From a virus, in IMG/VR virus record IMGVR_UViG_3300035698_009139: a stretch of DNA of 64,000 nucleotides; one strand, written 5' to 3'. How positions within the stretch are numbered: position 1 is the first letter of the stretch; the number at the start of each line of letters is the position of its first letter. Below are positions 37,939-54,130 of this stretch, in pieces. The notes under the pieces are model-generated. The model saw nothing but the letters and a program-made list of their open reading frames with translations. It searched no databases and was not told the DNA's origin. The position numbers were made by a program, and so were the translations under genes.

Positions 37939-38064
37939 TTGTCTGGTAACCCATCTTGCTGTATATTATACAAACTGGTGAGGCGATAGAAAAGACGCCA
38001 GAGAGCAAAAAAGTTGAGAAATCTGAAATTAAATGTTGTCTTAGGATGATAAATAACGTAAGAT
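37939..38064 (+). promoter_or_regulatory. tandem sigma70-type promoters driving the RNA island
   Basis: gTTGTCT-N17-TATATT (37939-37967) and gTTGTCT-N17-TAAGAT (38036-38064). Confidence 0.65.
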
Positions 38065-38380
38065 AGTTAAAGTCAAGGAATGAAACATTGGAGACAATGA
38101 TTAGAAATATTTGGAGCAAGATAGCTCTCAGCGAGAAAGATCACGGGTTTAATCCGTCGACTACTCGCCAGCAAGATGAATACAAAGGATAGCTACGCAC
38201 GAAGATAATTCGTTTGTAGCTCTCCAAGAGAAATCTTCGGAGAGTTTTTTAATACTAACGTGATAGCGGAACGAGGCTGCGACCATCACGATAAGCACTA
38301 GGTCAAACGGGCGGCGACAAGGATGAAACCGGCGGGTGTTAACGTCGAGAGTAAAATCTGTCTGATTGTTGAATAATTAT

Positions 38381-38466
38381 TTCAACGTTGTAAGTGCTGT
38401 TCTAATAGGTAAGATACCGGGATACCGGTGATGGGGGTTCGATTCCCCCGGCGATGAAACGTTGAG
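38381..38466 (+). ncRNA. anticodon-less tRNA-like RNA
   Basis: D arm, CCGG-GATA-CCGG in place of the anticodon arm, GGGGG-TTCGATT-CCCCC T arm, TCAACGTT/AACGTTGA outer stem. Confidence 0.6.
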
Positions 38467-38698
38467 ATTGGGTGCCCTGAACCCCCAGCCCAAGAGCTGG
38501 TGACTGCACAACTCGCAGCCTAATAAATGCAGGGACAATTCAAAAGCGGCGGCCCCACCGGCCGGCGCTTACGTTCGGAGAGCATGACTGCCTGCGTGGA
38601 GCTATAAATGGCTACGAAGCGGGGCGGTGCAAGTAGGGTTGCGATTAATAACTTGTATCAGTTGCTTAACCCCCCGGCTGATATTCTCCGAAACAAAT

Positions 38699-38772
38699 GC
38701 GAGTATGGCAGAATGGCTATGCGCTTGCCTTCCAAGCAAGACACCCCGGTTCGATTCCGGGTACCCGCTCCA
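38699..38772 (+). tRNA. tRNA-Gly(TCC)
   Basis: Cloverleaf with encoded CCA. Confidence 0.9.
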
Positions 38773-38840
38773 AGTTTGACCATCTGTATTCAGCCAGGTG
38801 AAAAGGCGTTTGGGACAACGCTGCTGTGTCAATTAAATTG

Positions 38841-38915
38841 CGCGGGGAGAGCTGCTGTGCTCCGCCCAGGCTCATACCCTGAGGCTTCTAGGTTCAATTC
38901 CTGGCTCCGCAACCA
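38841..38915 (+). tRNA. tRNA-fMet(CAT)
   Basis: C1:A72 mismatch, CAT loop, CCA; atypical D loop. Confidence 0.75.
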
Positions 38916-38929
38916 ACAAAAGGTGATAT

Positions 38930-39208
38930 ATGACAGTGCATTATGTGAAATCGTGGTCGTATCTATATGCGGCCGCCGTGGCTGGTGTCAAGACACATGA
39001 CATCAGAGACAGAACCGAACGGGATTATAAAGTCGGCGACACTTTGGTGTTGCAGGAGTTTGATCAATCCACCGGCCGGTACTCCGGCCGGGAACAACGA
39101 TTCGAAATCACATACATTACTGATCGCGACGTACCATGTGCACTATCCAGTGCGGTGCTGGCGCGGGACTATTGTATCCTAAGTATTACCCTTTTAGGAG
39201 AGGGATAG
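38930..39208 (+). CDS. ASCH/DUF3850 domain protein
   Basis: HYVKSW, GVKTHDIR, RDYKVGDTLVLQEF, ITYI. Confidence 0.8.
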   Translation: MTVHYVKSWSYLYAAAVAGVKTHDIRDRTERDYKVGDTLVLQEFDQSTGRYSGREQRFEITYITDRDVPCALSSAVLARDYCILSITLLGEG

Positions 39209-39250
39209 AGGCAAGTTGGCGGGAATGAACTTTAAACCGCACATTATTAA

Positions 39251-39321
39251 CGCGTTTTAGTCTAAGTTAGGGCAGCACCTGTACGGGTGCAGGTGCAGTA
39301 TCGAATCTGCGAACGCGGCCA
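39251..39321 (+). ncRNA. non-canonical tRNA-like RNA A (6-nt anticodon loop, TATCGAAT T loop)
   Basis: CGCGTTT/GAACGCG acceptor plus GCCA. Confidence 0.65.
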
Positions 39322-39475
39322 AAGGTTGGCGAGGTGAATGCGCCCATGATCTATATCACACCAGGGATCCTTAATGTGATGTTCGCCATGGTCTACGTAA
39401 GTGGAGGCATGTTTCACCGCTCCTGGGTTCGATCGCCAGGAGAGCAGGTTCGACTCCTGTCGCCCGCATTATTAT

Positions 39476-39547
39476 GCGAGTATCGTCTAAGTTAGGACGG
39501 CGTCCCTTTGAGGGCGTTATGGAGTATCGAATCTTCTACTCGCACCA
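39476..39547 (+). ncRNA. non-canonical tRNA-like RNA B (same class as 39251)
   Basis: GCGAGTA/TACTCGC acceptor plus ACCA; D and T loops identical to RNA A. Confidence 0.65.
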
Positions 39548-39620
39548 CTTATAGTGGGGGCGCCGCCATGATATGTTTAAGCCGGCAACGGTGGTAACAC
39601 GAGGCGCATTTTCTAATTGA

Positions 39621-39708
39621 TCCTGTCGGGCTGGCTTGGTGAAGGCTACGGACTGTTAATCCGATGACACCTACGGGTGGTGAGGTTCGAATCCTCAGGC
39701 AGGAGCCA
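39621..39708 (+). tRNA. tRNA-Asn(GTT) with long variable arm
   Basis: CGGA-CTGTTAA-TCCG; CACC-TACG-GGTG variable arm; GCCA. Confidence 0.8.
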
Positions 39709-39718
39709 AATTCAACGT

Positions 39719-39792
39719 GTCGGTTTAGTTCAATGGTAGAACAGCTGCTTCCAAACCAGAAGACGTGGGTTCGATTCCTACAACCCTCGCCA
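39719..39792 (+). tRNA. tRNA-Trp(CCA), mismatched acceptor stem
   Basis: Canonical D and T arms, TTCCAAA loop, GCCA. Confidence 0.75.
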
Positions 39793-40088
39793 AAGTTTTG
39801 CGAACGCCTCCGTTGTGCGGCGTCTCATCTGGTCATGGGAAAGATGGGCGGACCAGTGCCCATTGGAACGCAAATTAAATTTGTAAGAACCACCTGCAGG
39901 TGCATCCCGGTCGAAAGCCCGGGCCCCGCAGCGACTATCGAGGTCAGGTTCTCGCAATCGATGCCGAAAACGGATAGCGTAACTACCTCTGATGAGTATA
40001 GTTGCAACTGTACAATTCAAGTACCGGGTGAATGGGACCGGGGCGGCAAACACTCATTGGCGGCTCCAAACCGCAGGCATCGAAAAGT

Positions 40089-40096
40089 TATAAATA
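40089..40096 (+). promoter_or_regulatory. T4-type late promoter
   Basis: TATAAATA. Confidence 0.65.
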
Positions 40097-40130
40097 CCTC
40101 ATGGAAAAGAAGACGTTCAAAGAGAGGTAT

Positions 40131-40433
40131 ATGATGGCTGTTAAAATAACTACAGCAACACTCGCGCTGATCGGTATGCTGGTCACTGGATGGCTCTCAA
40201 TGGGTTTATCTACACCCGTAATGAGCCATGAATTGGCTCCCATCATACAAGTAGCGGGCAGTTATCTGGACGACAAGATTCACAATTTACGCCGAGAGTC
40301 GTTAGACATTCGCGGCCGCCTAGCTGATGGCGTTAAGAATTCTCAGTACAAAAGATTGCTCAACGACCGCTTGCAGCAGATCAACACAGAGATCCTCAAG
40401 CTGCAAAGGCAGTCTAAACAAATCAAACGTTGA
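40131..40433 (+). CDS. membrane-anchored coiled-coil protein
   Basis: N-terminal TM/signal segment; late promoter; AGAGG RBS. Confidence 0.55.
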   Translation: MMAVKITTATLALIGMLVTGWLSMGLSTPVMSHELAPIIQVAGSYLDDKIHNLRRESLDIRGRLADGVKNSQYKRLLNDRLQQINTEILKLQRQSKQIKR

Positions 40434-40508
40434 CGGTGTAGCCCGTGGCCGGGTATACTAGTTAAGAGAGGGTAGCCCCCTCGTGGTTCGATCCCAACTA
40501 CACCGACC
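40434..40508 (+). ncRNA. degenerate tRNA-like RNA
   Basis: CGGTGTAG/CTACACCG stem, two hairpins, TGG-TTCGATC-CCA T loop. Confidence 0.45.
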
Positions 40509-40515
40509 TAATAAT

Positions 40516-40591
40516 GGCCCCATAGTTTAATGGTTAGAATAATGGTTTTTCATGCCGCAGATCACGGGTTCGATTCCCTGTGGGGCCGCCA
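40516..40591 (+). tRNA. tRNA-Glu(TTC)
   Basis: Cloverleaf with bulged T stem, GCCA. Confidence 0.8.
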
Positions 40592-40606
40592 ATACAGGAG
40601 CGCACA

Positions 40607-40753
40607 ATGGACATAAAAGTCCGGCCGATGACGGCCGAAGAGATGCGCTACATGGAAAAGCTGACACATCGGATACACGAAAGTGCCGAAGAAGAAGCTA
40701 AGAAACGCACCCGCAAATGGGGTGGAGCCAAGAAGAGCGAAACTAGCAGTTGA
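40607..40753 (+). CDS. small basic protein (48 aa)
   Basis: AGGAG RBS; MDIKVRPMTAEEMRY... Confidence 0.5.
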   Translation: MDIKVRPMTAEEMRYMEKLTHRIHESAEEEAKKRTRKWGGAKKSETSS

Positions 40754-40778
40754 CTAGATCCTGTTAGTCGTGTATATT
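40750..40778 (+). promoter_or_regulatory. sigma70-type promoter for the large ncRNA
   Basis: gTTGACT-N17-TATATT. Confidence 0.7.
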
Positions 40779-40784
40779 ATCTAA

Positions 40785-41800
40785 ATCGACAGACACAAAA
40801 CCGACTTTCCTTTGTCATGGACTTCGTAGTGAATGTACTGGATCCGTAACCAGATGTCTGTTAGAATCGGCAGTTTGCAGTCAGTCTGCCTCCTCTCACT
40901 AGCTTCGGCTTGAGGAAATCAAACACTGACCTGAGAGTAGTAATAGTAGAGTAATGGCGGTATGACGTCATTAGGATAACTGCAGCAATGCAGCCAAAGT
41001 TAGGACTTCACAGCCTAGCGCCAGAAATGGCCCTTTCATACAAGCTCAGATCTCCTGGCGACAGGTTATCACCGAAGGGTGGTAATAAGATCAGACAGTC
41101 AGCTGTGTGTCCGAAAGGATACTCCCCAGGCCATCCGGTGAGGGGGAAGCGGCCCGCAAGCTGCACCGCAGATGCAAACTGACCGAAGATTGATGATTAA
41201 TGAGTAGCCATAACAAGAGCACGAGCGATTTCAAGTAAGTGCAAGTGGCAGGACAATCGGTGATGGAATACCCCTTCTTAGGAATGTGGTGTTACTGATT
41301 CGAGAAGGACAGCGGAGTACCTGGGAGGGGAAAGGCAAGACGGTGTGTTGTATTTTGTCGGTAACAACCGGCGAAGCAACTGAGACAGCACATCGCAGTG
41401 ATTTCTAAGAAGCTCGTGGAGAGCATCTGCCTTTAGCAGAAGTGGTGGTTCGATCCTACCTCTTTATTTAAAACGCAAAGCCTGTCTCAGTACGTTGTTA
41501 AAGTCGTCTAATCCTAGAATCCTCGGATAATCTAGGTTGCGGATCCTCGCAAGGGAAAAGCAATTGATGGCCAGAAGGTCGGAAACTTCTAGCGGAGTTG
41601 TACTGCTCGCAAGGCAGACGGTTCGAAGGCTGTTGAGTAGCAACGTGCGATAAGTGAAATGCCACACTTTAAAAAAGGCGACGTTGTTCGCAGACTGCCC
41701 AGATCCTCGCGGAGGGGTAGTGGATAACCGGTTAACCTAGATTGCCAATTTAGGGTACGACTGAAGGTGCGGACGTGAAACGTGTAATCTCAGCGTTCTA
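40785..41800 (+). ncRNA. GOLLD-like giant structured RNA
   Basis: About 1 kb with no credible ORF; many GNRA/UUCG hairpins; ACTGAGACAG (41379) pairs CTGTCTCAGT (41482); AAAAAAGGC and terminal TAATCTCAG motifs recalled from GOLLD; lies among tRNAs. Confidence 0.7.
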
Positions 41801-41881
41801 TCGATTCCCCAGTATGGGTGTAACTAAGCTAGCCGACGCGGATATAGTCGTCGGTTGGTTTAGTCACATTTAGGAGGCACA

Positions 41882-42130
41882 ATGAAATTTATACGAAAGC
41901 CAGTGCCTGTGGAAGCAGTCCAATGGACTGGCGATAACCACAAACAAATGTCATCATTTGTCGGCGACCGACTCGAATACATGTCCTTCTTACAAGGACG
42001 GATTATGGAGCTGACAACGTCAAGGGGAATGATTAAGGTGCAGGTGAATGAATGGCTGGTCGTAGGACCATCCGGAGAGTTCTACGCACGAACGGACGAA
42101 GCGTTCTGGAAAGCACACGAAGAAATTTAA
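41882..42130 (+). CDS. conserved phage protein
   Basis: KFIRKPVPVEAVQWTG...GEFY; AGGAGG RBS. Confidence 0.75.
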   Translation: MKFIRKPVPVEAVQWTGDNHKQMSSFVGDRLEYMSFLQGRIMELTTSRGMIKVQVNEWLVVGPSGEFYARTDEAFWKAHEEI

Positions 42131-42131
42131 T

Positions 42132-42206
42132 GGGCGTGAAGCACAACGGTTGTGCAGGGGATTGTCTATTCCAAGGTTGCGGGTTCGAATCCCGTCTCGC
42201 TCGCCA
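42132..42206 (+). tRNA. tRNA-Asp(GTC)
   Basis: Cloverleaf, GCCA. Confidence 0.85.
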
Positions 42207-42224
42207 ATTTTATGAGGTATCATA

Positions 42225-42395
42225 ATGATATGCAAAAAGTGCCAAAAAGCGATGCATATAGGCCAAGTTATCGATCCGTTCCGGCCAGAAAATGCATTTG
42301 TTGATCCAGCACCCGCACCAATCAATAATGATACACTTGTGATGAAAGACTGTTGGAAATGTCCCACGTGTGGACATTCTGAATGGTTAGAATAA
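42225..42395 (+). CDS. small zinc-ribbon protein
   Basis: CKKC...CPTCGH; GAGG RBS. Confidence 0.6.
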   Translation: MICKKCQKAMHIGQVIDPFRPENAFVDPAPAPINNDTLVMKDCWKCPTCGHSEWLE

Positions 42396-42414
42396 ATTAT
42401 ATAATGGAGGTTAC

Positions 42415-42585
42415 ATGACTAAACTTCACATGTCTGTGGATGTTGCACCCAATACGATGGTATCAATGACCAAAGATGCGTACGACGAAATGCAGGAGGA
42501 TCTGCAAGTGTTGTATGCTCTACAGGCGGCCGGCGTGGATAGCTGGGATGGTTACGACTTCGCAATGGAGTCAATAGAAGATTAA
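42415..42585 (+). CDS. gp5.9-like RecBCD/AddAB inhibitor candidate
   Basis: SMTKDAYDEMQ...ALQAAGVDSWDGY; acidic; GGAGG RBS. Confidence 0.55.
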   Translation: MTKLHMSVDVAPNTMVSMTKDAYDEMQEDLQVLYALQAAGVDSWDGYDFAMESIED

Positions 42586-42586
42586 T

Positions 42587-42662
42587 GCCGCTCTTGTGTA
42601 GATGGTCTGCACGTCTGGTTGAAGTTCAGAAGGTCCGGGTTCGATTCCTGGGGGCGGCACCA
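42587..42662 (+). tRNA. tRNA-Phe(GAA)
   Basis: Cloverleaf, ACCA. Confidence 0.9.
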
Positions 42663-42668
42663 AAATAT

Positions 42669-42753
42669 GCGTCGGGAAAGTTAGTGGTTCTAGCACGAGG
42701 CCTGTAAAGCCTTTCTCTTCGGGGGAGAAGTTCGATTCTTCACCGGCGCACCA
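42669..42753 (+). tRNA. tRNA-Tyr(GTA)
   Basis: Type II variable arm, ACCA. Confidence 0.85.
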
Positions 42754-42759
42754 AACGAC

Positions 42760-42904
42760 GGACTGTTGGCGGAAGAGGCAGACGCACTGGGTTGATAGCC
42801 TGGGTTAGATACCACACGGGTCGGCATAGAAAACCTATCGTAATATCTCGAGTAAAAGCGGCAGTTAGTTTATGTTCTTGGAGGTTCGAATCCTTCACAG
42901 TCCA
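42760..42904 (+). ncRNA. tRNA-like RNA with large insertion in the anticodon arm
   Basis: GGACTGT/ACAGTCC acceptor, Leu-like D arm, GGAGG-TTCGAAT-CCTTC T arm. Confidence 0.65.
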
Positions 42905-42991
42905 CTATTACATCAGAAGTAAAACGAGGCGTTACAGCACGCCTATCCACAGAACGCGACGGCGCGCGGCCGGTAATCAGTCTGCGGAGGA

Positions 42992-43092
42992 CTCGCACAG
43001 CACACAGAAACGGGAAACGTTGGTTCGAATCCAACTGCAGCGGCGTAAGGTCGTTGTATCGTCTAGTGGCTTAGGACGCCCGTATGTGCGAG
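42992..43092 (+). ncRNA. circularly permuted tRNA mimic 1 (YrlA-like Y RNA)
   Basis: Order T arm, closed acceptor stem, D arm; ends pair through the extended anticodon stem. Confidence 0.75.
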
Positions 43093-43111
43093 AAGGATGT
43101 AATGATATTCA

Positions 43112-43196
43112 GCATCGAGGAAGGGGAGGTAGTGGTTCGAGTCCGCTTATTGCTACGGCGATATAGTCCAATTGGTAGGGCGCCCCGTGTCGATGT
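43112..43196 (+). ncRNA. circularly permuted tRNA mimic 2 (YrlA-like Y RNA)
   Basis: Same topology; GCATCGA/TCGATGT terminal stem. Confidence 0.75.
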
Positions 43197-43203
43197 AAAC
43201 AAT

Positions 43204-43277
43204 GAGCCCTTGGCAGAATGGTGATGCGTCGGTCTGCAAAACCGAAGGCTCCGGTTCAATTCCGGAAGGGTTCTCCA
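43204..43277 (+). tRNA. tRNA-Cys(GCA)
   Basis: Cloverleaf, U73, CCA. Confidence 0.92.
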
Positions 43278-43284
43278 AAATAAA

Positions 43285-43368
43285 GCCTCTGTGGTGAAAC
43301 GGCAGACACGCTAGTCTTAGGAACTAGTACCGCAAGGTGTGGGGGTTCGACTCCCTCCAGGGGCACCA
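43285..43368 (+). tRNA. tRNA-Leu(TAG)
   Basis: Type II, ACCA. Confidence 0.92.
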
Positions 43369-43619
43369 ATTCAAGGTATATTATGAAAGAAATTAGTAGA
43401 GAAATAATCAACGACAAATATGCGGCAATACGGTATAAATTAGATGAACCGATAATCCGAAGATATTATCCAATTCAATATGTGACAATTCGAATTGAAC
43501 GGTACGGGTGCCAACCGCTATTAATTTAAGGAAGAAATTAATGGCTCTATCGTCCAACGGTAAAACACTAGATTGTCTATCTTGTAGCCGGGGTTCGACT
43601 CCCTCCAGGGGCACCAATT
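43342..43619 (+). repeat. 30-bp direct repeat of the tRNA-Leu 3' end
   Basis: GGGGTTCGACTCCCTCCAGGGGCACCAATT at 43342-43371 and 43590-43619. Confidence 0.9.
43543..43616 (+). pseudogene. chimeric tRNA (Asp GTC 5' part plus Leu 3' end)
   Basis: Acceptor and T stems mismatched; 3' end identical to tRNA-Leu(TAG). Confidence 0.6.
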
Positions 43620-43622
43620 TCT

Positions 43623-43630
43623 TATAAATA
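43623..43630 (+). promoter_or_regulatory. T4-type late promoter
   Basis: TATAAATA upstream of tRNA-Ala and the internal-protein genes. Confidence 0.7.
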
Positions 43631-43639
43631 GGCAACAAT

Positions 43640-43714
43640 GGGGCGCTAGTGCTAACGGGAACACGTTGGTTTTGCATACCGAAGTTCGGGGTTCGATTCC
43701 CCGGCGCTCCACCA
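43640..43714 (+). tRNA. tRNA-Ala(TGC)
   Basis: G3:U70, ACCA. Confidence 0.93.
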
Positions 43715-43731
43715 ATTTTGAGGGGTTCACA

Positions 43732-44106: not shown

Positions 44107-44117
44107 AGGACAGTCCT

Positions 44118-45436: not shown

Positions 45437-45566
45437 GTCGGGTATCGCATAGTTGCGGTCGGTCTGATTATAACAGTTGTAAGCGCATGGTCAGTAGACG
45501 AATGGATAAAATAGAGTTTGATTGTACATGATGATTCTAGGGTGCAATAACCCCCGCCAGACACCA
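45437..45566 (+). ncRNA. CCA-terminated tRNA-like RNA with expanded core
   Basis: GTCGGGT/GCCAGAC plus ACCA; GGGTGCAATAACCC T-like arm. Confidence 0.45.
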
Positions 45567-48113: not shown

Positions 48114-48114
48114 T

Positions 48115-48188: not shown

Positions 48189-48193
48189 ATTTA

Positions 48194-48325
48194 TGGCGAT
48201 GCAGAGCATTCTAATGGATAATGCGCCAGAGACTTAATGTACATACCATAGCGTTGCCACGCAGTACGGTGGTGGCAGGAGGTTGTCTCAGGAGATAAGG
48301 GGGTTCGATTCCCTCCATCGTCACA
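48194..48325 (+). ncRNA. tRNA-like RNA with expanded anticodon arm
   Basis: TGGCGATG/CATCGTCA; GCATT/AATGC D arm; GAGAC/GTCTC flanking an insert; TTCGATT T loop. Confidence 0.65.
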
Positions 48326-48335
48326 GTTTTAATAT

Positions 48336-48414
48336 GCACCTGTATGCCGCCGGTCTTCGAAACCGGAGAAAGCTAACTGGATACATGGAGGTTCGACTCC
48401 TCTCAGGTGCGCCA
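48336..48414 (+). tRNA. D-armless tRNA-Arg(TCG) with D-loop sequence in the variable region
   Basis: GCACCTG/CAGGTGC, CCGGT-CTTCGAA-ACCGG, T arm, GCCA. Confidence 0.7.
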
Positions 48415-48426
48415 ATTATTCTAACT

Positions 48427-48434
48427 TATAAATA
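48427..48434 (+). promoter_or_regulatory. T4-type late promoter for the HNH gene
   Basis: TATAAATA. Confidence 0.7.
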
Positions 48435-48460
48435 CTCCAGAATCTACAGGAGATTGTTAT

Positions 48461-48880
48461 ATGAAGAAGTGCACTAATTGTAAAGAAGAAAAATCAGAAG
48501 AGCACTTTGCTTGGAAAAATAAAGCTAAAGGCTTGAGACAAAACAAGTGCAAAATATGTTACAGCGCCTACAACAGAACATATTACCATTCTGGTGAAAA
48601 GCATAAACAAAAAGCACGAGTGAGGGCCAATATTGAAAAAACTGCTCAAAAGTATCGAGCATGGAAGGACTTACAATCCTGTAATGAATGTGATGAATCT
48701 GCCGCAGAGTGTTTAGACCTTCACCACCTAGATCCGACAAAAAAGGATTTTTCATTGTCAGGATCATACCAAATGTATACCTGGGAACGTATACAGAAAG
48801 AATTACATAAGTGTGTGGTGTTATGTGCCAACTGCCATCGAAAAGTCCACACTGGCCGAATACAAATATTGGACCCGTAG
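48461..48880 (+). mobile_element. free-standing HNH endonuclease gene
   Basis: CxxC pairs, LDLHH.DP, CVVLCANCHRKVH; AT-rich; between two tRNA-Arg genes. Confidence 0.75.
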
Positions 48881-48947
48881 CACAACTGGATAGTGCATCG
48901 ATCTTCTAAATCGAGGGTTGCAGGTTCAAGTCCTGCCGGGTCCACCA
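48871..48947 (+). tRNA. tRNA-Arg(TCT)
   Basis: Cloverleaf, A20, ACCA. Confidence 0.92.
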
Positions 48948-49128
48948 ACATAGGAATAGTTATGGAAGATGCAGAACGGATTAAACGGATTAAAGAATGG
49001 ATCGGGGAATCTTCTTTGGAAGATGTTATCGACACCGCGATGAATCGTCACACAGTCCGCGTCGGCCGCCGCAAACATATCGCCGCGATAGTACGGGAGG
49101 CGTTTGAAATCGTCTCTACTATCAGCGA

Positions 49129-49725
49129 ATGAGATTCATCGGAGACATACACGGCAACTTTATGCAATACTGTGGGATCGCCCAACAGGTGGGTCACTCA
49201 GTGCAGGTTGGCGACTATGGCGCCGGGTTTTCATATCCGTATCCTGAATTCGATGAAAACAATCACCGATTCATCCGAGGCAATCACGATAGTCCGGAGG
49301 AGTGCAGGCGACATCCAAATTGGATTAACGATGGTCGCGTTGAAGAAACGATTCACTCCGGCGCAATCATGTATGTGGGTGGTGCTAGGTCAATTGATCA
49401 AGAGTGGCGCACTGAAGGTCACAACTGGTGGCCTGAAGAAGAGCTGTCGATAGCAGAGCTTGGGCGGATGGTCGACAGGTACATCGACCTGAAACCGGCC
49501 GTGATGGTTACACACGATTGCCCAGAAGCAGTTGTTCATCCATTCTTCGGAAGTTTAGCAGTATCAGAAGATACGCGCACCCGGCAAGCATTTCAGTCGA
49601 TGTGGGAAGCTCACAAGCCAGATCTTTGGATCTTTGGCCACTGGCATTACGCAGTTGACCAGAAAGTATTAGGTACAAGATTTATATGCCTAGATCAGTT
49701 AACATATGTTGACCTCGACTTATAA
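49129..49725 (+). CDS. calcineurin-like metallophosphoesterase
   Basis: GDIHG, VGD, RGNHD, THDCP, FGHWH. Confidence 0.88.
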   Translation: MRFIGDIHGNFMQYCGIAQQVGHSVQVGDYGAGFSYPYPEFDENNHRFIRGNHDSPEECRRHPNWINDGRVEETIHSGAIMYVGGARSIDQEWRTEGHNWWPEEELSIAELGRMVDRYIDLKPAVMVTHDCPEAVVHPFFGSLAVSEDTRTRQAFQSMWEAHKPDLWIFGHWHYAVDQKVLGTRFICLDQLTYVDLDL

Positions 49726-49744
49726 ATCGGGTATGATAATGTAA

Positions 49745-49830
49745 GCCTGTTTGGTGGAATGGAATACGCAGCAGCTTTAAACCCTGCCGGCCTAACGGCC
49801 ATGAGAGTTCGAATCTCTCAACGGGCACCA
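49745..49830 (+). tRNA. tRNA-Leu(TAA)
   Basis: Type II, ACCA; promoter gTTGACC-N17-TATGAT at 49709. Confidence 0.85.
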
Positions 49831-49836
49831 ATTTGT

Positions 49837-49912
49837 ATCCCTGTAGTTCAGTGGTAGCAACGTTCCGCTCATAACGGAAATGTCGGGGGTTCGATTCCCT
49901 CCGGGGATACCA
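49837..49912 (+). tRNA. tRNA(CAT), probably Ile2
   Basis: TTCCG-CTCATAA-CGGAA, ACCA. Confidence 0.8.
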
Positions 49913-49931
49913 ATTTATGATGGAGACTAAT

Positions 49932-50159
49932 ATGAAAGATGATTTTCTGACGACGCTGCAAGCAGTGGACTGGGAAGATATGGATCTGGATGATTGCAAG
50001 GACAAGTTCAAAGAGCTTGCAGCCTTATGGGACTTCCAGGCGAAGCGAGACGAATATTGCCGCGCTGTCGACGGATGCAGAACCAAGAAGCGAGTGATCT
50101 CGTTCATCTGGAGCATCTGCCTTTCCGGCCTGCAGAAGAAGAATACGTACGCACGATGA
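49932..50159 (+). CDS. hypothetical protein
   Basis: GGAG RBS. Confidence 0.55.
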   Translation: MKDDFLTTLQAVDWEDMDLDDCKDKFKELAALWDFQAKRDEYCRAVDGCRTKKRVISFIWSICLSGLQKKNTYAR

Positions 50160-50386
50160 CGCTACAACAATGCCAGCCAATCGTAGACAAGTTCTGCGGT
50201 GACAAAGAAGACTGGCTGGATGCAGTAGAAGCGTTGGGCGTCCGAGGATTTTATTGGAACGGTAACCACAAAGCGTTCCTAGGATTACACCACCGAACAA
50301 ATGCAGTCGTTGCAGTATTTGAAACGAAAGCTGAGTGCGATAAGTGGTGCGAATACGTTAACGATCTATTTGATCATAGCCTCTAA
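50156..50386 (+). CDS. hypothetical protein
   Basis: ATGA overlap; stop inside tRNA-Thr. Confidence 0.5.
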   Translation: MTLQQCQPIVDKFCGDKEDWLDAVEALGVRGFYWNGNHKAFLGLHHRTNAVVAVFETKAECDKWCEYVNDLFDHSL

Positions 50387-50453
50387 AGCATAAATGGCGA
50401 TGCGCGGGTTTCGTAAACCTGATAACTCAGTTCGATTCTGGGTGGAGGCACCA
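50379..50453 (+). tRNA. tRNA-Thr(CGT)
   Basis: Cloverleaf, ACCA. Confidence 0.88.
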
Positions 50454-50470
50454 ATTTGAGGAGTTTGATT

Positions 50471-50950
50471 ATGCACTATGCGATGTATTCAGAGGACTAC
50501 GATGGAACTGACACCAGCAATTATCGCACCTATAATAGAGGTGATATGTATTTGGCCAGTGCTGATACGTATGATGAGCTGATAGATAAACTGGCTATAG
50601 AGCAGATTCGATTGAACGAGATTCGCCGAGACCATCCTGGGTCAACCGAATACTATATCAGCACTCACTGGTGTTTTCGAGCGGACATTCATGTATCATC
50701 TAGTTGCAATGATGGCATTGAATTGTTTGGTGCTGATGTAGGTGTCGAGGGAGCACACCTTGAATCAGACATATATAAGAAGTCGGCCGCATGGAAGGCT
50801 TATTTAGATAAGACTGCCAAAGAAAAGAAAAAGGCCCTGTCAATAAAGAAGGCGGCTAATACCCGCGCCCAGAATAAAAAAGATGCCGATAGAGAAAATA
50901 AGGAACGGAAGTTGCTTGCTGAGCTAAAGGAGCGATATGAAAAGGAATGA
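50471..50950 (+). CDS. hypothetical protein
   Basis: GAGGAG RBS; basic C-terminal helix. Confidence 0.6.
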   Translation: MHYAMYSEDYDGTDTSNYRTYNRGDMYLASADTYDELIDKLAIEQIRLNEIRRDHPGSTEYYISTHWCFRADIHVSSSCNDGIELFGADVGVEGAHLESDIYKKSAAWKAYLDKTAKEKKKALSIKKAANTRAQNKKDADRENKERKLLAELKERYEKE

Positions 50951-51200
50951 GGAACGCCAACTGGCGATGACTGCATTCGACGCGCTTCCAATACTGCTCA
51001 GAGACAAGATCAATTACTGTTTTGAGAGCCTGCCATATAAATATATATTGGACGTATATGTTTGGTGGCAGGACGGCCAACCCATCGGCCGAATAGCAGA
51101 TGAGATCGATACGATAGCCAGAACTAACACAATTGCGTTTCGAGAAACACAGCGAATCAGAGACATGATACGAAAAAGAAATAACGCTTCCAAAGCATAA
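50937..51200 (+). CDS. hypothetical protein
   Basis: AAGGAG RBS; stop inside tRNA-Thr. Confidence 0.55.
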   Translation: MKRNEERQLAMTAFDALPILLRDKINYCFESLPYKYILDVYVWWQDGQPIGRIADEIDTIARTNTIAFRETQRIRDMIRKRNNASKA

Positions 51201-51260
51201 GTGGCGATGCAGGGGTTTTGTAATCCTCAGAACTCGGTTCGATTCCGGGTGGGAGCACCA
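51186..51260 (+). tRNA. tRNA-Thr(TGT)
   Basis: Cloverleaf, ACCA. Confidence 0.9.
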
Positions 51261-51274
51261 ATTAGGAGAGCACT

Positions 51275-51462
51275 ATGAAGATGTGTGAAGAATGTGGAGG
51301 ATCCGGCAGCCTGCTGGTCAGGGTTAAACCCCTGGCAATTGCAGACTGCCCGATATATGCTGGGGTTGTGGTACTTGGCCACCTCCGGACAGGCCACTGA
51401 ATTTCACGATTCAGATGCATCCTTTCAAACGAAAGAAGCCAAGGAAAAAGAAGCACCCGTAG
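51275..51462 (+). pseudogene. DnaJ-type zinc-finger mini-protein frameshifted by an extra AT
   Basis: CEECGGSG; removing AT at 51353-51358 gives CPICWGCG. Confidence 0.55.
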
Positions 51463-51529
51463 CTCAGCTGGATAGAGCGCCGCCCTGCGAAGGCGGAGGC
51501 CACAAGTTCGAATCTTGTCGGATGCACCA
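51453..51529 (+). tRNA. tRNA-Arg(GCG)
   Basis: CCGCC-CTGCGAA-GGCGG, A20, ACCA. Confidence 0.9.
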
Positions 51530-51703
51530 ATTTAGAAAGTGATATTATGACTGATGATGAAGTTGCAATGATTGCGGCACGATTTTTTATCGATGAATTC
51601 GAAAATGATCCAACAGCCGTTGCTGAGTGGGTTGAATCTGCCAACCTCAATGTAGAGGAATTCATCACCCACGCAATAAAGCTTGCACAGAAATAGATAA
51701 CAT

Positions 51704-51780
51704 GCGGGCCAGGTAGCACTGGGTCAATGCGTCGCGTTGCCAACGCGAAGAGGTGGGTTCGATTCCCACGGTCCGCGCCA
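51704..51780 (+). tRNA. tRNA-Gly(GCC)
   Basis: TCGCG-TTGCCAA-CGCGA; atypical D arm and G73. Confidence 0.8.
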
Positions 51781-51784
51781 AAAT

Positions 51785-51941
51785 TTGAAGTCGCTTGTCC
51801 CTATTAATGGGCGGCTCCATAACGAGACTAGTTCCATGACCTGTAGGGGGTCGCAAAAGAATTCCGGGCTCATAATCCGGAGATGCGGGGTTGGTATGCC
51901 CGCCGGCGCTTCGGCGTCGTAGTTCAAGGTCTCTAGGAACA
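51785..51941 (+). ncRNA. circularly permuted tRNA(CAT) mimic with UUCG-sealed acceptor stem
   Basis: GAAT, CCGGG-CTCATAA-TCCGG, AGAT, GCGGG/CCCGC, CGGCGC-TTCG-GCGTCG, TA, GTTC. Confidence 0.65.
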
Positions 51942-51943
51942 AC

Positions 51944-52021
51944 GGATAGGTAGTAGTGTTGGCTATACGAACGGTCTCTTAAACCGCCTAGGCGTGGGTT
52001 CGATTCCCACCCTATCCACCA
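51944..52021 (+). tRNA. tRNA-Lys(CTT)
   Basis: GGATAGG/CCTATCC, CTCTTAA loop, ACCA. Confidence 0.85.
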
Positions 52022-52034
52022 ATTGAACTAACTG

Positions 52035-52063
52035 TTGTAATCGATTACAAAGTCGTGTATAAT
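52035..52063 (+). promoter_or_regulatory. sigma70-type promoter
   Basis: gTTGTAA-N17-TATAAT. Confidence 0.55.
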
Positions 52064-52090
52064 TATTACAGCAACTGAGAGGAGGCACAG

Positions 52091-52654
52091 ATGATCGGAT
52101 TACGTACACTTGTTCTAAACAACAATTACATCCCCATCAGCATGTACCCCCTTCATCACATCCCAGCAGAGGATGCTATGACACGCGTATACAATGAAAC
52201 GTGTTATGTTGTGCTCGAATACGATCGACCAATTTTGACGCAGCAGACAGGCTTAAAATGGCCTAGCGTGATTGCCAGGATAGCCACCGACTATGTATCG
52301 ACGGCCGTTAAGCTCCGGCCCGAATCTCTGTATTACCGAGATCATGGAAAGTGTCAATACTGCCACGAACCTGTTACAGTTAATGCAATGACATGCGATC
52401 ACGTTGTCCCTCAATCTCTTGGAGGCCCATTCACTTGGGAAAACATCGTTACAGCATGTTCCAGGTGTAACGGAGCTAAAGGTAACCACCGGCCGGAGGG
52501 CCGTTGGAAACTTCCGTACAAGCCGAAGAAGCCGACGTATCATCAACTATTGAAGAACCGAAGACAGTTTCCTATTACGGTTGGCGATATTAATTGGATG
52601 CAATTCCTAGGCGACTGGGATGGGCAAGTAAACATTAACGCTGCTGGGGCTTAG
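52091..52654 (+). CDS. HNH endonuclease (McrA/HNH_5 type)
   Basis: TLVLN..Y.PI, RD..CQYC, DHVVPQS.GG..WENIVTACSRCN. Confidence 0.9.
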   Translation: MIGLRTLVLNNNYIPISMYPLHHIPAEDAMTRVYNETCYVVLEYDRPILTQQTGLKWPSVIARIATDYVSTAVKLRPESLYYRDHGKCQYCHEPVTVNAMTCDHVVPQSLGGPFTWENIVTACSRCNGAKGNHRPEGRWKLPYKPKKPTYHQLLKNRRQFPITVGDINWMQFLGDWDGQVNINAAGA

Positions 52655-52676
52655 GTCTCAGTAGCCGGAGTACATT

Positions 52677-53351
52677 ATGTTACATAAGCGATTTAGTATG
52701 AACAAACTCGGCCGCGACTTTGTCGTTGGCGACCTTCACGGTTGCTTTGGCCAATTGTTGGACGAGCTGAGTAAGATCGAGTTCAATGACCGGGCGGATC
52801 GGATGTTCTCTGTCGGTGATCTGATTGATCGCGGCAAGGAGAATATCCAATGCGCCGAACTGCTGCACGCACCCTGGTTTTTCTCAGTCAAAGGCAACCA
52901 CGAGGACATGTTCGTGGCTGCAATGAATTCAAACGCCGGCACACACGACATGATGATGTATTTTCAAAATGGCGGCAACTGGGTATACGATGAGTTGGAC
53001 AATGCTATCAATGCCCCAGCTGACAAAGCACAGTGGATCGCCGAATTCGTCAGATTGTTTTCACAACTACCGCTGTCAATCACCGTCCCTACGAGTAACG
53101 GACTGGTCGGTATCTGTCATGCACAGCCTCCAGAGGACTGGGAGCAGGTGCAGTTCGAAACAGAAGCTAAGCTGCTATGGGCAAGACAAGTTGTCCAAAT
53201 GACGGCTCCGATCTTTCGCGTCGACAATGTGTGGAAGACGTACCACGGCCATACACCACTCGATGAGAAAAAAGTCGTCGGCAATGCACACTTTATTGAC
53301 ACCGGCGCTGTGTTCGATGGTGGTAAGCTGACCGTTGAAAGGATTCACTGA
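52677..53351 (+). CDS. Ser/Thr protein phosphatase (lambda NinI/PrpA family)
   Basis: GDLHG, VGDLIDRG, GNHE, HGHT, IDTG. Confidence 0.9.
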   Translation: MLHKRFSMNKLGRDFVVGDLHGCFGQLLDELSKIEFNDRADRMFSVGDLIDRGKENIQCAELLHAPWFFSVKGNHEDMFVAAMNSNAGTHDMMMYFQNGGNWVYDELDNAINAPADKAQWIAEFVRLFSQLPLSITVPTSNGLVGICHAQPPEDWEQVQFETEAKLLWARQVVQMTAPIFRVDNVWKTYHGHTPLDEKKVVGNAHFIDTGAVFDGGKLTVERIH

Positions 53352-53528
53352 TGAAAACCATTGAGGTCACTGATCAGAATGCTATATATGTTGATGGTAC
53401 CAGAATCACTAACCGTTCGACAAAATGGGGAAGGCATCGAGTCATCTCCTGTTTCAAAGGCCATAACGTAGAAGATGCTCTAAAGTCTGCCGGCTTCGAG
53501 CATCTGCTAAAATTTATAGGAGACTGAT

Positions 53529-53972
53529 ATGTCGCTACATGGTAATGTGATTGATAGCTTCTCCGGCGAAAATCGCTTCCTGAGTAATTTTCAGCTGTGC
53601 AGCGTGACAATGGACGAGGAGTGGTATGGTTCTACTGAGCATGCATACCAGGCCGCGAAGACGCTGGACTTAAATAAACGAAAGATATTCCGCGGCTCTA
53701 CGTCTTGTGGAACCGCAAAACGATTAGGGCAAACTCTTGTGTTGCGTCCCGACTGGGAAGAGGTTAAAATACCTGTGATGAAAGGATTGCTCGACCAAAA
53801 GTTTTGCATCCCTATTCTCAGGGCGTGTCTGATGGAAACTGGCGATGCTACCCTGATTGAAGGCAACGGCTGGAATGACACATTCTGGGGCGTATGCAAA
53901 GGAAAAGGACACAATCACCTTGGCATCCTGTTGATGCAGGTGCGGGATGAAATTAGAAATATGGATGGTTAA
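53529..53972 (+). CDS. NADAR (YbiA-like) glycosidase/ADP-ribosylhydrolase
   Basis: FLSNF, TEHAYQAAK, KF, EGN.W.DTFWG, NHLG..LM.VR. Confidence 0.9.
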   Translation: MSLHGNVIDSFSGENRFLSNFQLCSVTMDEEWYGSTEHAYQAAKTLDLNKRKIFRGSTSCGTAKRLGQTLVLRPDWEEVKIPVMKGLLDQKFCIPILRACLMETGDATLIEGNGWNDTFWGVCKGKGHNHLGILLMQVRDEIRNMDG

Positions 53973-54053
53973 CTAGCCAGGGTGCTAGACCTGCCTGCTA
54001 AGCAGTGGGAGCCTCGGAAGAGGCTTGAGTTTCGAGTACTCAGCCATCCGCCA
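53963..54053 (+). tRNA. tRNA-Ser(GCT)
   Basis: Long variable arm, GCCA. Confidence 0.88.
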
Positions 54054-54056
54054 ATT

Positions 54057-54130
54057 AGCCGCTTCGTATAAAGGCATTACTGCTGGTTCTGAGCCAGTTG
54101 ATCTGGGTTCGATTCCTAGAGCGGCTTCCA
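54057..54130 (+). tRNA. tRNA-Gln(CTG)
   Basis: Cloverleaf, CCA. Confidence 0.88.

What the first reader, a model, noticed from the sequence alone, without database searches (positions are those of the whole stretch)
38050..54130. Candidate new system: a phage repertoire of rewired tRNA-mimic RNAs within a full tRNA set
Seen: besides about 33 tRNAs covering all 20 amino acids, at least ten elements keep tRNA D/T-loop (elbow) motifs and intact helices but break the topology in different ways. Permuted with sealed acceptor: 42992, 43112, 51785. Anticodon-less: 38381. Six-nt anticodon loops: 39251, 39476. Expanded anticodon arms: 42760, 48194, 45437. D-loop transplanted: 48336. They sit downstream of sigma70-type promoters, with a GOLLD-like RNA, Pth2, two HNH genes, an HD hydrolase, phosphatases, NADAR and, just downstream, a PNK-type phosphatase. 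Inference: decay would not preserve stems while rearranging arm order, so these look selected. They may be decoys or sponges for tRNA-targeting immunity (anticodon nucleases such as PrrC, VapC, PARIS AriB), or ligands of Ro60, RelA or synthetases.
Basis: partly seen in the sequence, partly recalled or inferred. Interest (0 to 1): 0.9.

Follow-up and report, generated by a model that had tools for sequence, protein, structure and literature searches.

The report
Phage tRNA island with tRNA look-alikes
A T4-like salt-lake phage carries, among about 30 ordinary tRNA genes, at least seven rearranged tRNA look-alike genes; most belong to RNA classes that recur in other phages, so they are real and probably useful, but the kind is partly known and their job is untested.

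Summary
Nine of the ten elements are tRNA-derived as described; for two of these the added arm has no support. One element (45437) is not confirmed.

- **Permuted (42992, 43112, 51785):** all three are circularly permuted, sealed-acceptor tRNA shapes, the layout of YrlA-type Y RNAs. My IMG/VR scan found at least 28 such modules in phage contigs. Some lie beside Ro60/TROVE genes. Others sit inside tRNA arrays of phages encoding DUF2828.
- **48336:** it belongs to a conserved phage class of D-arm-rewired tRNA-Arg (36 relatives, covarying stems), so it is probably a working tRNA.
- **39251 and 39476:** they have two metagenomic relatives with the same odd elbow and short, unrelated loops. That argues against anticodon-specific decoys.
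- **38381:** a structured singleton.
- **42760 and 48194:** tRNA scaffolds whose 67-75-nt inserts are no more stable than shuffles. They may be disrupted genes.

The window holds no Ro60 or DUF2828 gene, no CGAA motif and no RNA data. A Band-7 protein and a PNKP phosphatase lie just downstream.

This scan has met the same classes before on other phage DNA. The likeliest function is Y-RNA-like protein-binding tRNA mimicry in RNA surveillance or repair; this is inferred, not shown. I rate it a new variant of a known kind.

The parts
38379..38468 (+). tRNA-like RNA with an 11-bp terminal stem, an internal loop, a 4-bp helix, a D-like hairpin, a 6-bp hairpin closed by a GAUA tetraloop at the anticodon position, and a canonical T arm. 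No CCA. Singleton.
   Evidence: MFE z -3.3. Own tRNA model scores 23.4 bits over model positions 10-63. Rfam matches only the T arm. No relative found.
39251..39321 (+). CCA-ended tRNA look-alike, paralog 1: D arm GUCU-AAGUUA-GGGC, 8-nt T loop UAUCGAAU, 6-nt loop UGUACG.
   Evidence: 24.3 bits. Relatives L397 and L399. One SNP, 39289 G>T, in a second sample breaks a stem pair.
39476..39547 (+). CCA-ended tRNA look-alike, paralog 2: same D arm and T loop, 6-nt loop CUUUGA.
   Evidence: Rfam tRNA 27.7 bits, below the cut-off of 29. Own model 23.9 bits. MFE z -2.6. Family alignment.
41340..41796 (+). GOLLD RNA.
   Evidence: Rfam RF02032, 163.4 bits against a cut-off of 150.
42760..42904 (+). tRNA scaffold (7-bp acceptor, D arm, GAU anticodon arm, T arm) with a roughly 75-nt insert before the T arm. 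No CCA. Either an expanded tRNA-like RNA or an interrupted tRNA-Ile gene.
   Evidence: Rfam tRNA 32.3 bits with alignment. Insert z +1.1. Whole element z +0.4.
42992..43097 (+). Circularly permuted tRNA mimic: 8-bp closing stem, T arm, 9-bp acceptor sealed by GUAAG, D arm.
   Evidence: Rotation test. MFE z -2.7. The outside-built model R2 aligns it end to end at 16.1 bits.
43112..43199 (+). Circularly permuted tRNA mimic: 7-bp closing stem, 4-bp inner stem, T arm, acceptor of 7+2+7 nt sealed as a tetraloop, D arm.
   Evidence: Rfam YrlA 30.6 bits against a cut-off of 69. R2 core 40.3 bits, E 2e-6. Rotation test. MFE z -2.8.
45437..45553 (+). Claimed expanded-arm element. Not confirmed as a structured or tRNA-like RNA.
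   Evidence: No T arm. No hit in Rfam or the own model. MFE z -0.2.
48195..48323 (+). tRNA scaffold (7-bp acceptor, D arm with GG, canonical T arm) in which a 67-nt arm replaces the anticodon arm. No CCA. Similar in build to T4 species 1 RNA.
   Evidence: Arm z -0.09. Own model matches only the 3' part at 17.5 bits. T4 rnaC fold.
48336..48414 (+). Rewired tRNA-Arg(UCG): no D arm, linker UAUGCCG, D-loop sequence after the anticodon arm, encoded CCA. Member of a conserved phage class.
   Evidence: Rfam tRNA 38 bits. 36 non-redundant IMG/VR relatives, 34 with 7/7 acceptor pairs. Covariation.
51859..51941 (+). Permuted tRNA-Met(CAU)-like core: anticodon arm, variable loop, T arm with a 9-nt loop, acceptor sealed by UUCG, UA, D arm. 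It is preceded by hairpins at 51785-51858.
   Evidence: The rotated sequence is called tRNA-Met by ARAGORN at default. R2 scores 16.8 bits. MFE z -0.9.
55131..56606 (+). SPFH/Band-7 protein just downstream of the island. A candidate protein partner; this is inference only.
   Evidence: Pfam PF01145, E 3.5e-14. The homolog loci L001-L004 carry no tRNA-like RNA.
57380..57880 (+). Stand-alone PNKP-type HAD phosphatase (RNA 3'-end healing).
   Evidence: Pfam PF25109, E 3.6e-23.

Best explanation
The 16-kb stretch is the tRNA gene island of a T4-superfamily phage. Beside about 30 decoding tRNAs and a GOLLD RNA, it holds members of several recurrent phage classes of tRNA-derived RNA.

(1) Three permuted, sealed-acceptor tRNA mimics with the layout of the tRNA-like module of YrlA Y RNAs, and one mimic (38381) with a tetraloop in place of the anticodon loop.
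(2) Two CCA-ended look-alikes with an alternative elbow and 6-nt loops that cannot present an anticodon.
(3) One D-arm-rewired tRNA-Arg that probably still decodes.
(4) Two or three interrupted or decayed tRNA genes.

Inferred mechanism: the mimics are transcribed with the tRNAs and released when RNase P and the 3' processing enzymes cut out their neighbours. They fold into the tRNA L-shape. They then act as non-decodable ligands or scaffolds for tRNA-shape-binding proteins in RNA surveillance and repair, as Y RNAs do for Ro60 and PNPase. The protein partner here is unknown. It could be a Ro60-like protein encoded outside the window or by the host, or the adjacent Band-7 protein working with the nearby end-healing phosphatases.

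What is shown: the structures and their conservation in other phages. What is inferred: expression, processing, partner and role.
For: Structure:
- Rotation tests turn all three permuted elements into ARAGORN tRNAs.
- Rfam YrlA aligns the T arm, closed acceptor and D arm of 43112.
- A model built only from outside sequences hits 43131-43181 at 40.3 bits, E 2e-6.

Recurrence and covariation:
- In a truncated IMG/VR scan, 55 of 120 T-loop/D-arm matches have a self-complementary acceptor, against 1.3% expected. 28 non-redundant ones are not tRNA dimers.
- T stem, acceptor and closing stem covary.
- The subtype with a UUACUUCG motif lies beside a TROVE gene in 5 of 5 records.
- DUF2828 is encoded in 3 of 5 records with the array-embedded subtype that carries a CAGCAA motif.
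- 39251/39476 have two outside relatives with the identical elbow and 28 of 28 acceptor pairs kept through changes.
- 48336 has 36 relatives with up to 20 double changes per acceptor pair and no breaks.

Context:
- Pth2-like, HD, two metallophosphatases, NADAR, Band-7 and a PNKP phosphatase.

Established knowledge:
[quoted passage not shown] Deinococcus radiodurans Yrn1, a Y RNA, has a 6-nt 'anticodon' loop, and Yrn2 is made in one precursor with a tRNA (PMC4201824).
- A phage Ro60 with its Y-like RNAs recruits host PNPase (PMC12135203).
- Band-7-linked tRNA-like RNAs have been predicted in RNA-repair loci (bioRxiv 10.1101/312249).
Against: - No TROVE or DUF2828 gene among all window ORFs of 200 aa or more.
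- The GNCGAA motif is absent from the 5' sides of the permuted elements.
- Rfam YrlA stays far below its cut-off. 42992 and 51785 score no better with model R2 than a tRNA-dimer junction does (16-17 bits).
- 38381 and 48194 have no known relative.
- The phage has no close relative, so none of the window's own copies could be tested for conservation in place.
- One population SNP breaks a stem pair of 39251.
- Loci with homologs of the Band-7 protein carry no tRNA-like RNA.
Confidence: 0.55

Rival explanations
1. The non-decoding look-alikes are decoys or competitive inhibitors of host tRNA-targeting nucleases such as PrrC, PARIS AriB, retron-linked PtuAB or colicin-like anticodon nucleases. 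They would bind the nuclease through the tRNA body but could not be cut productively, and so would protect the real tRNAs.
For: - The loops of 39476 (CUUUGA) and 39251 (UGUACG) resemble the Lys(UUU) and Tyr(GUA) anticodon loops minus one base. From my own knowledge, these are the two tRNAs most often targeted by known defences.
- The island also encodes a full tRNA set, a Pth2-like protein and end-healing phosphatases.
- Phage tRNAs have been proposed to counter tRNA-targeting defences (PMC10264068).
Against: - Outside relatives of the same family have loops GAAA and ACCGAA, with no likeness to any targeted anticodon. The loop is therefore not the conserved part.
- The permuted mimics have no anticodon loop.
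- No defence or anti-defence assay exists for any of these RNAs.
- The literature search found no report of tRNA-like decoys.
Confidence: 0.18
2. The odd elements are non-functional by-products of duplication, illegitimate recombination and homing-endonuclease traffic in a dense tRNA array. On this reading the tRNA-like stems are inherited, not selected.
For: - Two HNH genes lie in the island, one directly after 48194 and 48336.
- 43543-43616 is a chimera whose last 27 nt equal the 3' end of tRNA-Leu(UAG), and it has two acceptor mismatches.
- The inserts of 42760 and 48194 are no more stable than shuffles.
- 45437 is not structured.
- A SNP breaks a pair in 39251.
- A permuted layout can arise from the middle of a tandem tRNA duplicate. 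One weak BLAST match spans a tRNA-tRNA junction.
Against: - The permuted, rewired-Arg and alternative-elbow classes recur in unrelated phage contigs with covarying stems.
- Sealed acceptors of exact tRNA length and added closing stems are not expected from decay.
- The paralogs 39251 and 39476 keep identical loops while six of seven acceptor pairs changed on both sides.
Confidence: 0.17
3. The CCA-ended look-alikes (39251 and 39476) are charged with an amino acid but kept off the ribosome. They would serve as aminoacyl donors for a non-ribosomal reaction, as the non-proteinogenic tRNA-Gly species of staphylococci do.
For: - They have 7-bp acceptors with NCCA.
- The rebuilt, weak T arm (4 bp, 8-nt loop) might lower EF-Tu binding. 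This is my own inference by analogy.
Against: - The two outside relatives end in G-CUA, not CCA.
- No aminoacyl-tRNA-dependent transferase was found in the window.
- The identity elements are unknown.
Confidence: 0.07

Closest known systems
YrlA-type bacterial and phage Y RNAs (Rfam RF02553; Chen et al. 2014, PMC4201824; structure in bioRxiv 10.1101/312249; phage Ro60 and its Yrl RNAs, PMC12135203)
   Same: 42992, 43112 and 51785 have a T arm, then a hairpin-closed acceptor of tRNA length, then UA, then a D arm. There is no free CCA and no anticodon loop, and the whole is closed by pairing of the 5' and 3' ends. They sit next to tRNA genes, as Yrn2 and tRNA-Asp do in Deinococcus.
   Different: The score is far below the Rfam cut-off. 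There is no GNCGAA/CGAA motif and no Ro60/TROVE gene in 64 kb. The closing stems are shorter. 51785 keeps a complete CAU anticodon arm and has a non-canonical T loop.
Phage tRNA-mimic RNAs with a stem-plus-CAGCAA 'handle' in phages that encode DUF2828 proteins. This family is seen in IMG/VR here (L119, L124, L130, L139, L179, L187, L199, L211, L213, L216) and was noted earlier in this scan. I found no paper on it.
   Same: They share the permuted core inside phage tRNA arrays that also hold GOLLD or ROOL. 42992 aligns end to end with the model, with seven standard closing pairs, and carries ACAGCA at the motif's place.
   Different: Only the core of 43112 scores significantly. The handle is not clearly present, and no DUF2828 gene lies in the window.
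Deinococcus radiodurans Yrn1 (a Y RNA)
   Same: 38381 has the long stem at the acceptor position, a weak D-like arm, a short arm at the anticodon position and a T arm. Yrn1's 'anticodon' loop has 6 nt, as in 39251 and 39476 (PMC4201824).
   Different: There is no sequence likeness and no Ro60-binding bulged helix. 39251 and 39476 have normal 7-bp acceptors with CCA.
Phage T4 species 1 RNA (rnaC) in the T4 tRNA cluster
   Same: Like 48194 and 42760, it is a 130-145-nt RNA in a T4-type tRNA cluster. It has a canonical T arm next to a terminal pairing, a large expanded middle and no encoded CCA.
   Different: No sequence similarity was found. T4 rnaC folds far better than shuffles (z -4.6), whereas 48194 and 42760 do not.
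Band-7-associated tRNA-like RNA (b7a-tRNA) of RtcB repair loci (a prediction by Burroughs and Aravind 2016, as cited in bioRxiv 10.1101/312249)
   Same: tRNA-like RNAs lie within about 1-17 kb of a Band-7/SPFH gene and an RNA end-healing enzyme.
   Different: No RtcB gene is in the window. No model of b7a-tRNA was at hand. Homologs of this Band-7 protein in four other phage contigs have no tRNA-like neighbour.

Membership tests
YrlA (RF02553) | tRNA-like module: T arm, hairpin-closed acceptor, D arm, closed by 5'/3' pairing | tested here: met
   Rfam alignment of 43112. Rotation tests for 42992, 43112 and 51785. R2 core hit of 40.3 bits.
YrlA (RF02553) | Reaches the Rfam gathering score (69 bits) | tested here: not met
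   43112 scores 30.6 bits. 42992 and 51785 give no hit at E <= 10 and E <= 1.
YrlA (RF02553) | GNCGAAN0-1G (CGAA) Ro60-binding motif near the 5' end | tested here: not met
   No match lies on the 5' side of any of the elements. 43112 has only AUCGAGG.
YrlA (RF02553) | Encoded next to a Ro60/Rsr (TROVE) gene | tested here: not met
   No TROVE among all ORFs of 200 aa or more in the 64-kb window. The rest of the phage genome is not held.
YrlA (RF02553) | Bound by Ro60 in vivo | not testable with these tools
   Needs immunoprecipitation or a gel-shift assay.
Handle (stem + CAGCAA) tRNA-mimic RNAs of DUF2828-encoding phages | Closing stem followed by a single-stranded CAGCAA motif | tested here: inconclusive
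   42992 has ACAGCA after or within its closing stem and aligns end to end at 16.1 bits (E 0.002 in 256 nt, 0.53 in the whole window). In 43112 the CAGCA overlaps the stem.
Handle (stem + CAGCAA) tRNA-mimic RNAs of DUF2828-encoding phages | DUF2828 (PF11443) gene in the same genome | tested here: not met
   None in the window. Present in 3 of 5 outside records.
tRNA (RF00005), decoding | Cloverleaf with a 7-nt anticodon loop, and a score above the cut-off | tested here: not met
   This row covers 39251 and 39476. Their loops are 6 nt (or 4/8). Rfam gives 27.7 bits and no hit. The own model gives 24 bits against 57-74 for the canonical tRNAs.
Rewired D-armless phage tRNA-Arg class | 7-bp acceptor, about a 7-nt linker, an Arg anticodon arm, D-loop sequence (YUGGAUA) 4-8 nt before the T arm, NCCA | tested here: met
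   48336 aligns column for column with 29 IMG/VR members. The linker UAUGCCG and AGAAAGCUAACUGGAUACAU are shared. Acceptor pairs covary with no breaks.
tmRNA | tRNA-like domain plus tag reading frame and pseudoknots | tested here: not met
   ARAGORN tmRNA search finds none. Rfam matches only T-arm pieces at 12-17 bits.
GOLLD (RF02032) | Reaches the Rfam gathering score | tested here: met
   163.4 bits against 150, full model length.
b7a-tRNA / Band-7 RNA-repair module | tRNA-like RNA beside a Band-7 protein and RtcB | tested here: inconclusive
   A Band-7 gene lies 1 kb past the island and a PNKP phosphatase lies nearby. No RtcB is in the window. Band-7 homolog loci lack tRNA-like RNAs.

The most novel reading that the evidence does not exclude
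This phage, and others such as the 166-kb phage behind L124, keep a panel of different non-decodable tRNA look-alikes. The panel includes permuted, anticodon-less and alternative-elbow forms. The look-alikes work without a dedicated Ro60 gene, as a general shield or regulator of tRNA-shape-recognising host factors during infection. Those factors would include defence nucleases, RNase P, modification enzymes and stringent-response sensors. On this reading they form a counter-defence layer that accompanies large phage tRNA arrays and has not been described.
Probability: 0.15. Interest if true: 0.88.

Novelty: new variant of a known kind. Interest (0 to 1): 0.6.

Why it matters
Why phages carry large tRNA arrays is still debated. 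This island shows that such arrays also carry several conserved classes of tRNA-shaped RNAs that cannot decode, and that standard gene finders and Rfam miss them.

The work here yields concrete, alignable families that can be taken to the bench:
- sealed-acceptor mimics found with or without a Ro60-type gene;
- an alternative-elbow, short-loop family;
- a rewired tRNA-Arg.

If the mimics prove to bind defence or repair proteins, they would add an RNA-based layer to phage-host conflict over tRNA. If not, they still correct phage tRNA annotation.

Tried and rejected
Searches that gave no relatives of the phage:
- Nucleotide search of the INPHARED phage collection with 42700-43300 and 42992-43199 gave no homolog, only T-arm-sized matches.
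- Relatives sought through SPFH, DUF3850, Pth2-like and DNA polymerase proteins reach at most 53-71% identity, with no syntenic tRNA island.
- The HD protein has only identical copies in two ENA contigs, L099 and L100.

Pattern scans that failed:
- First IMG/VR pattern for the 39251 family: only chance hits.
- Pattern CTGGATAN{8,11}GGTTCGA used the wrong gap for 48336 and returned noise.
- Genome-contig scans for 38381 and for the 39251 family: nothing tRNA-like.

Expression:
- No RNA holder is listed for this DNA, so expression could not be examined.
- Laying DNA contigs from four salt-lake runs showed a nearly clonal population and gave only one informative SNP.

Ideas rejected:
- tmRNA reading of 38381 and 48194.
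- Group I intron or archaeal-type split or permuted tRNA genes: the inserts are too short, there is no intron hit in the window, and the sealed acceptors carry no spacer or CCA.
- tRNA-dimer artefact for the permuted elements: the acceptor hairpins have 2-5-nt loops and ARAGORN calls no flanking tRNAs.
- R1 search of the SPFH homolog loci found nothing.

Complex prediction and the structure tools were not used, because the partners in question are RNAs.

Full report
**What the window is.** The window encodes family B DNA polymerase, a UvsX/RecA-like protein, a DnaB-type helicase, a clamp and clamp loader, ribonucleotide reductase, ThyX and NAD-salvage enzymes. The polymerase is 46% identical to that of T4-type cyanophages and at most 53% identical to anything in IMG/VR. 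The DNA occurs in salt-lake metagenomes. The only near-identical copies are two ENA contigs. No whole genome is held. Conservation therefore had to be tested class by class in unrelated phages.

**The tRNA set and context.** ARAGORN at its default finds 25 tRNAs, and Rfam at gathering score also finds 25. Lowering the ARAGORN threshold gives 33. A covariance model I built from 22 canonical tRNAs of this island (R1) scores those at 57-74 bits. It also recovers a tRNA-Lys(UUU) with a 25-nt D region at 46878-46961 (40.6 bits). All 20 amino acids are covered only with these weak calls. GOLLD is confirmed (163.4 bits). The named proteins are confirmed: a Pth2-like protein (N-terminal match only), an HD hydrolase, two HNH proteins, two metallophosphatases, NADAR, DUF3850, and downstream an SPFH/Band-7 protein and a stand-alone PNKP-type phosphatase. 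Sigma70-like promoter matches are not above shuffles.

**Permuted elements.** 42992, 43112 and 51785 each have a T arm followed without a gap by a hairpin that equals a tRNA acceptor stem. In 43112 and 51785 this hairpin is 7+2+7 nt; in 42992 it is 9+5+9. Two nucleotides and a D arm follow. I cut each element in the acceptor loop and rotated it.
- 51785 becomes an ARAGORN tRNA-Met(CAT) at the default threshold, with no added letters.
- 42992 and 43112 become tRNAs once a generic 7-nt loop caps their inner stem.

Rfam's YrlA model aligns the T arm, closed acceptor, D arm and both closing helices of 43112, but only at 30.6 bits against a cut-off of 69. YrlA is defined by this tRNA-like module, by a GNCGAA motif near the 5' end and by a neighbouring Ro60 gene (PMC4201824). 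The motif is absent here. No TROVE domain occurs in any ORF of 200 aa or more.

**The permuted class in other phages.** I scanned IMG/VR for a T loop, 18-20 nt, then a D arm. The scan stopped at 120 loci. In 55 of them the 7 nt after the T stem pair with the 7 nt before the D arm, against 1.3% expected by chance. After removing true tRNA dimers, 28 non-redundant modules remain. They have strong covariation in the T stem and acceptor. None reaches the Rfam YrlA cut-off. Two subtypes appear.
- One carries a UUACUUCG motif. It lies beside a TROVE gene in 5 of 5 records, so these are Ro60/Y-RNA loci.
- The other has a covarying closing stem followed by an invariant CAGCAA motif. It sits mostly inside tRNA arrays.

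A complete 166-kb phage with ROOL RNA and 22 tRNAs has the second subtype and no TROVE gene. Following a lead from earlier notes of this scan, I found DUF2828 in 3 of 5 such records, including that complete genome.

A model built only from ten outside CAGCAA-type sequences (R2) gives these scores in the window:
- 43131-43181: 40.3 bits, E 2e-6, core only.
- 42992: aligned end to end with seven standard closing pairs, but only 16.1 bits.
- 51785: 16.8 bits.
- A tRNA-dimer junction in the window: 17.5 bits.

The three elements therefore share the architecture of a widespread phage family of tRNA mimics. Only 43112 is tied to that family by a significant score. The family's protein-binding ends are not clearly present in any of the three.

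**The pair 39251 and 39476.** Both have 7-bp acceptors, NCCA ends, the identical D arm GUCU-AAGUUA-GGRC, a 4-bp T stem with the 8-nt loop UAUCGAAU, and 6-nt loops. Six of seven acceptor pairs differ on both sides between the two copies. A metagenome scan found two further members, L397 and L399. They have the same D arm and T loop. Their acceptor pairs were not imposed by the search pattern, and across the four sequences 28 of 28 are kept. Their 'anticodon' loops are GAAA and ACCGAA, and they end in G-CUA. This is a small but real family of non-decoding tRNA look-alikes with an alternative elbow. Because the loop sequence is not conserved, a decoy aimed at a particular anticodon nuclease is unlikely.

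**48336.** It has no D arm. Seven nucleotides (UAUGCCG) join the acceptor to a UCG anticodon arm, and D-loop sequence follows that arm. A specific pattern found 43 IMG/VR loci, where about 0.2 were expected by chance. Of the 36 non-redundant sequences:
- 34 have 7 of 7 acceptor pairs;
- 24 end in NCCA;
- many share the same linker and the block AGAAAGCUAAYUGGAUACAU.

Aligned with the window copy, the acceptor pairs show up to 20 double changes and no breaks. 48336 is therefore a member of a conserved, phage-borne, rewired tRNA-Arg class. It is most likely a working tRNA rather than a mimic.

**38381.** It folds well (z -3.3). It has a long terminal stem, a short hairpin closed by GAUA where the anticodon arm should be, and a canonical T arm. 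The layout recalls Deinococcus Yrn1 (PMC4201824). No relative was found.

**42760, 48194 and 45437.** 42760 and 48194 keep the acceptor, D and T arms. Their inserts fold no better than shuffles. In 42760, Rfam finds an intact GAU anticodon arm ahead of the insert. T4 species 1 RNA is a precedent for an expanded tRNA-like RNA in a T4-type cluster. Interruption of tRNA genes is equally possible, for three reasons: one of the two HNH genes lies directly after 48194 and 48336, 43543 is a chimeric tRNA, and direct repeats run through the island. 45437 has no T arm, no model hit and no excess stability, so I do not accept it.

**How unusual the island is.** Counting canonical T arms that lie outside any relaxed tRNA call, the window has 7. 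The median of 42 phage arrays is 1 and the maximum is 8, in L124. The L124 orphans include further sealed-acceptor modules and tRNAs with large inserts. Such repertoires therefore recur in a minority of large phages.

**Function.** Nothing here shows expression. No RNA run holds this DNA, which is not evidence either way. From established work, Y RNAs tether Ro60 to PNPase or gate its cavity. Phage Ro60 with its Y-like RNAs recruits host PNPase (PMC12135203). tRNA-like RNAs have been predicted beside Band-7 proteins and RtcB in repair loci (bioRxiv 10.1101/312249). The island's neighbours (Band-7, PNKP phosphatase, metallophosphatases, HD, Pth2-like) fit an RNA damage-and-repair theme. I therefore favour protein-binding tRNA mimicry in RNA surveillance or repair (0.55). 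The rivals are nuclease decoys (0.18), non-functional rearrangement products (0.17, chiefly for 42760, 48194 and 45437) and non-ribosomal aminoacyl carriers (0.07).

**Earlier findings of this scan.** Notes on other phage genomes describe the same classes: sealed-acceptor mimics beside Ro60-like DUF2828 genes, rewired tRNA-Arg, anticodon-less look-alikes and twin 6-nt-loop look-alikes. I used them only as leads. I tested the DUF2828 link, the tRNA-Arg class and the 6-nt-loop family myself.

Noticed in passing
window 39621-39708: The only Asn-anticodon (GUU) tRNA of the island is 88 nt long with a long variable arm. That is a type II body, which in bacteria is normally seen only in Leu, Ser and Tyr tRNAs. 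Rfam prefers the tRNA-Sec model for it at 29 bits.
   Followed up: no
window 46878-46961: A tRNA-Lys(UUU) with a 25-nt D region and two non-standard T-stem pairs. It is missed by default ARAGORN and by Rfam at gathering score (23.3 bits) but scores 40.6 bits with the island's own tRNA model.
   Followed up: partly
window 43543-43616: A chimeric tRNA-Asp(GUC)-like gene. Its last 27 nt are identical to the 3' end of tRNA-Leu(UAG) at 43342-43368, and it has two acceptor mismatches. This is evidence of recombination between island tRNA genes.
   Followed up: partly
window 45675-45746 and 39397-39471: A CCA-ended tRNA-Met(CAU)-like gene with T loop UCCGAUU and a poor D arm (32.3 bits with the own model, no Rfam hit). 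Separately, a stretch with two tandem T-arm-like hairpins and no acceptor pairing.
   Followed up: no
window 38469-38698: A 230-nt ORF-free stretch between 38381 and tRNA-Gly folds better than shuffles (z -2.5). It may belong to a longer structured RNA.
   Followed up: no
window 38000-54200: Most tRNAs end in an encoded CCA followed by AUU (CCAATT). 39251 and 39476 share the leader CAUUAUUA. These may be common processing signals.
   Followed up: no
L112:9848-10186: A bacterial class A RNase P RNA (100.2 bits against a cut-off of 100) lies inside the tRNA island of a complete 118.8-kb phage contig with terminal repeats and 28 tRNAs (IMGVR_UViG_3300044981_000022).
   Followed up: no
L119, L124, L130, L139, L179, L187, L199, L211, L213, L216: A family of phage RNAs with a covarying closing stem, an invariant CAGCAA motif and a permuted tRNA module. 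No member is reported by Rfam at gathering scores, and DUF2828 is encoded in 3 of 5 records. Earlier notes of this scan liken the handle to Dictyostelium Class I RNAs. I only confirmed that Class I RNAs have a short stem plus an 11-nt motif (PMC7919456).
   Followed up: partly
G020 (record of L124), 60261-60998: The DUF2828 reading frame of this complete 166-kb phage contains an in-frame TAG, and its tRNA array holds a tRNA with anticodon CUA. This suggests TAG read-through or recoding.
   Followed up: no
L113:8781-9234: A second GOLLD RNA (177.9 bits) lies among the tRNAs of a complete 457-kb phage contig whose SPFH protein is 51% identical to the window's.
   Followed up: no
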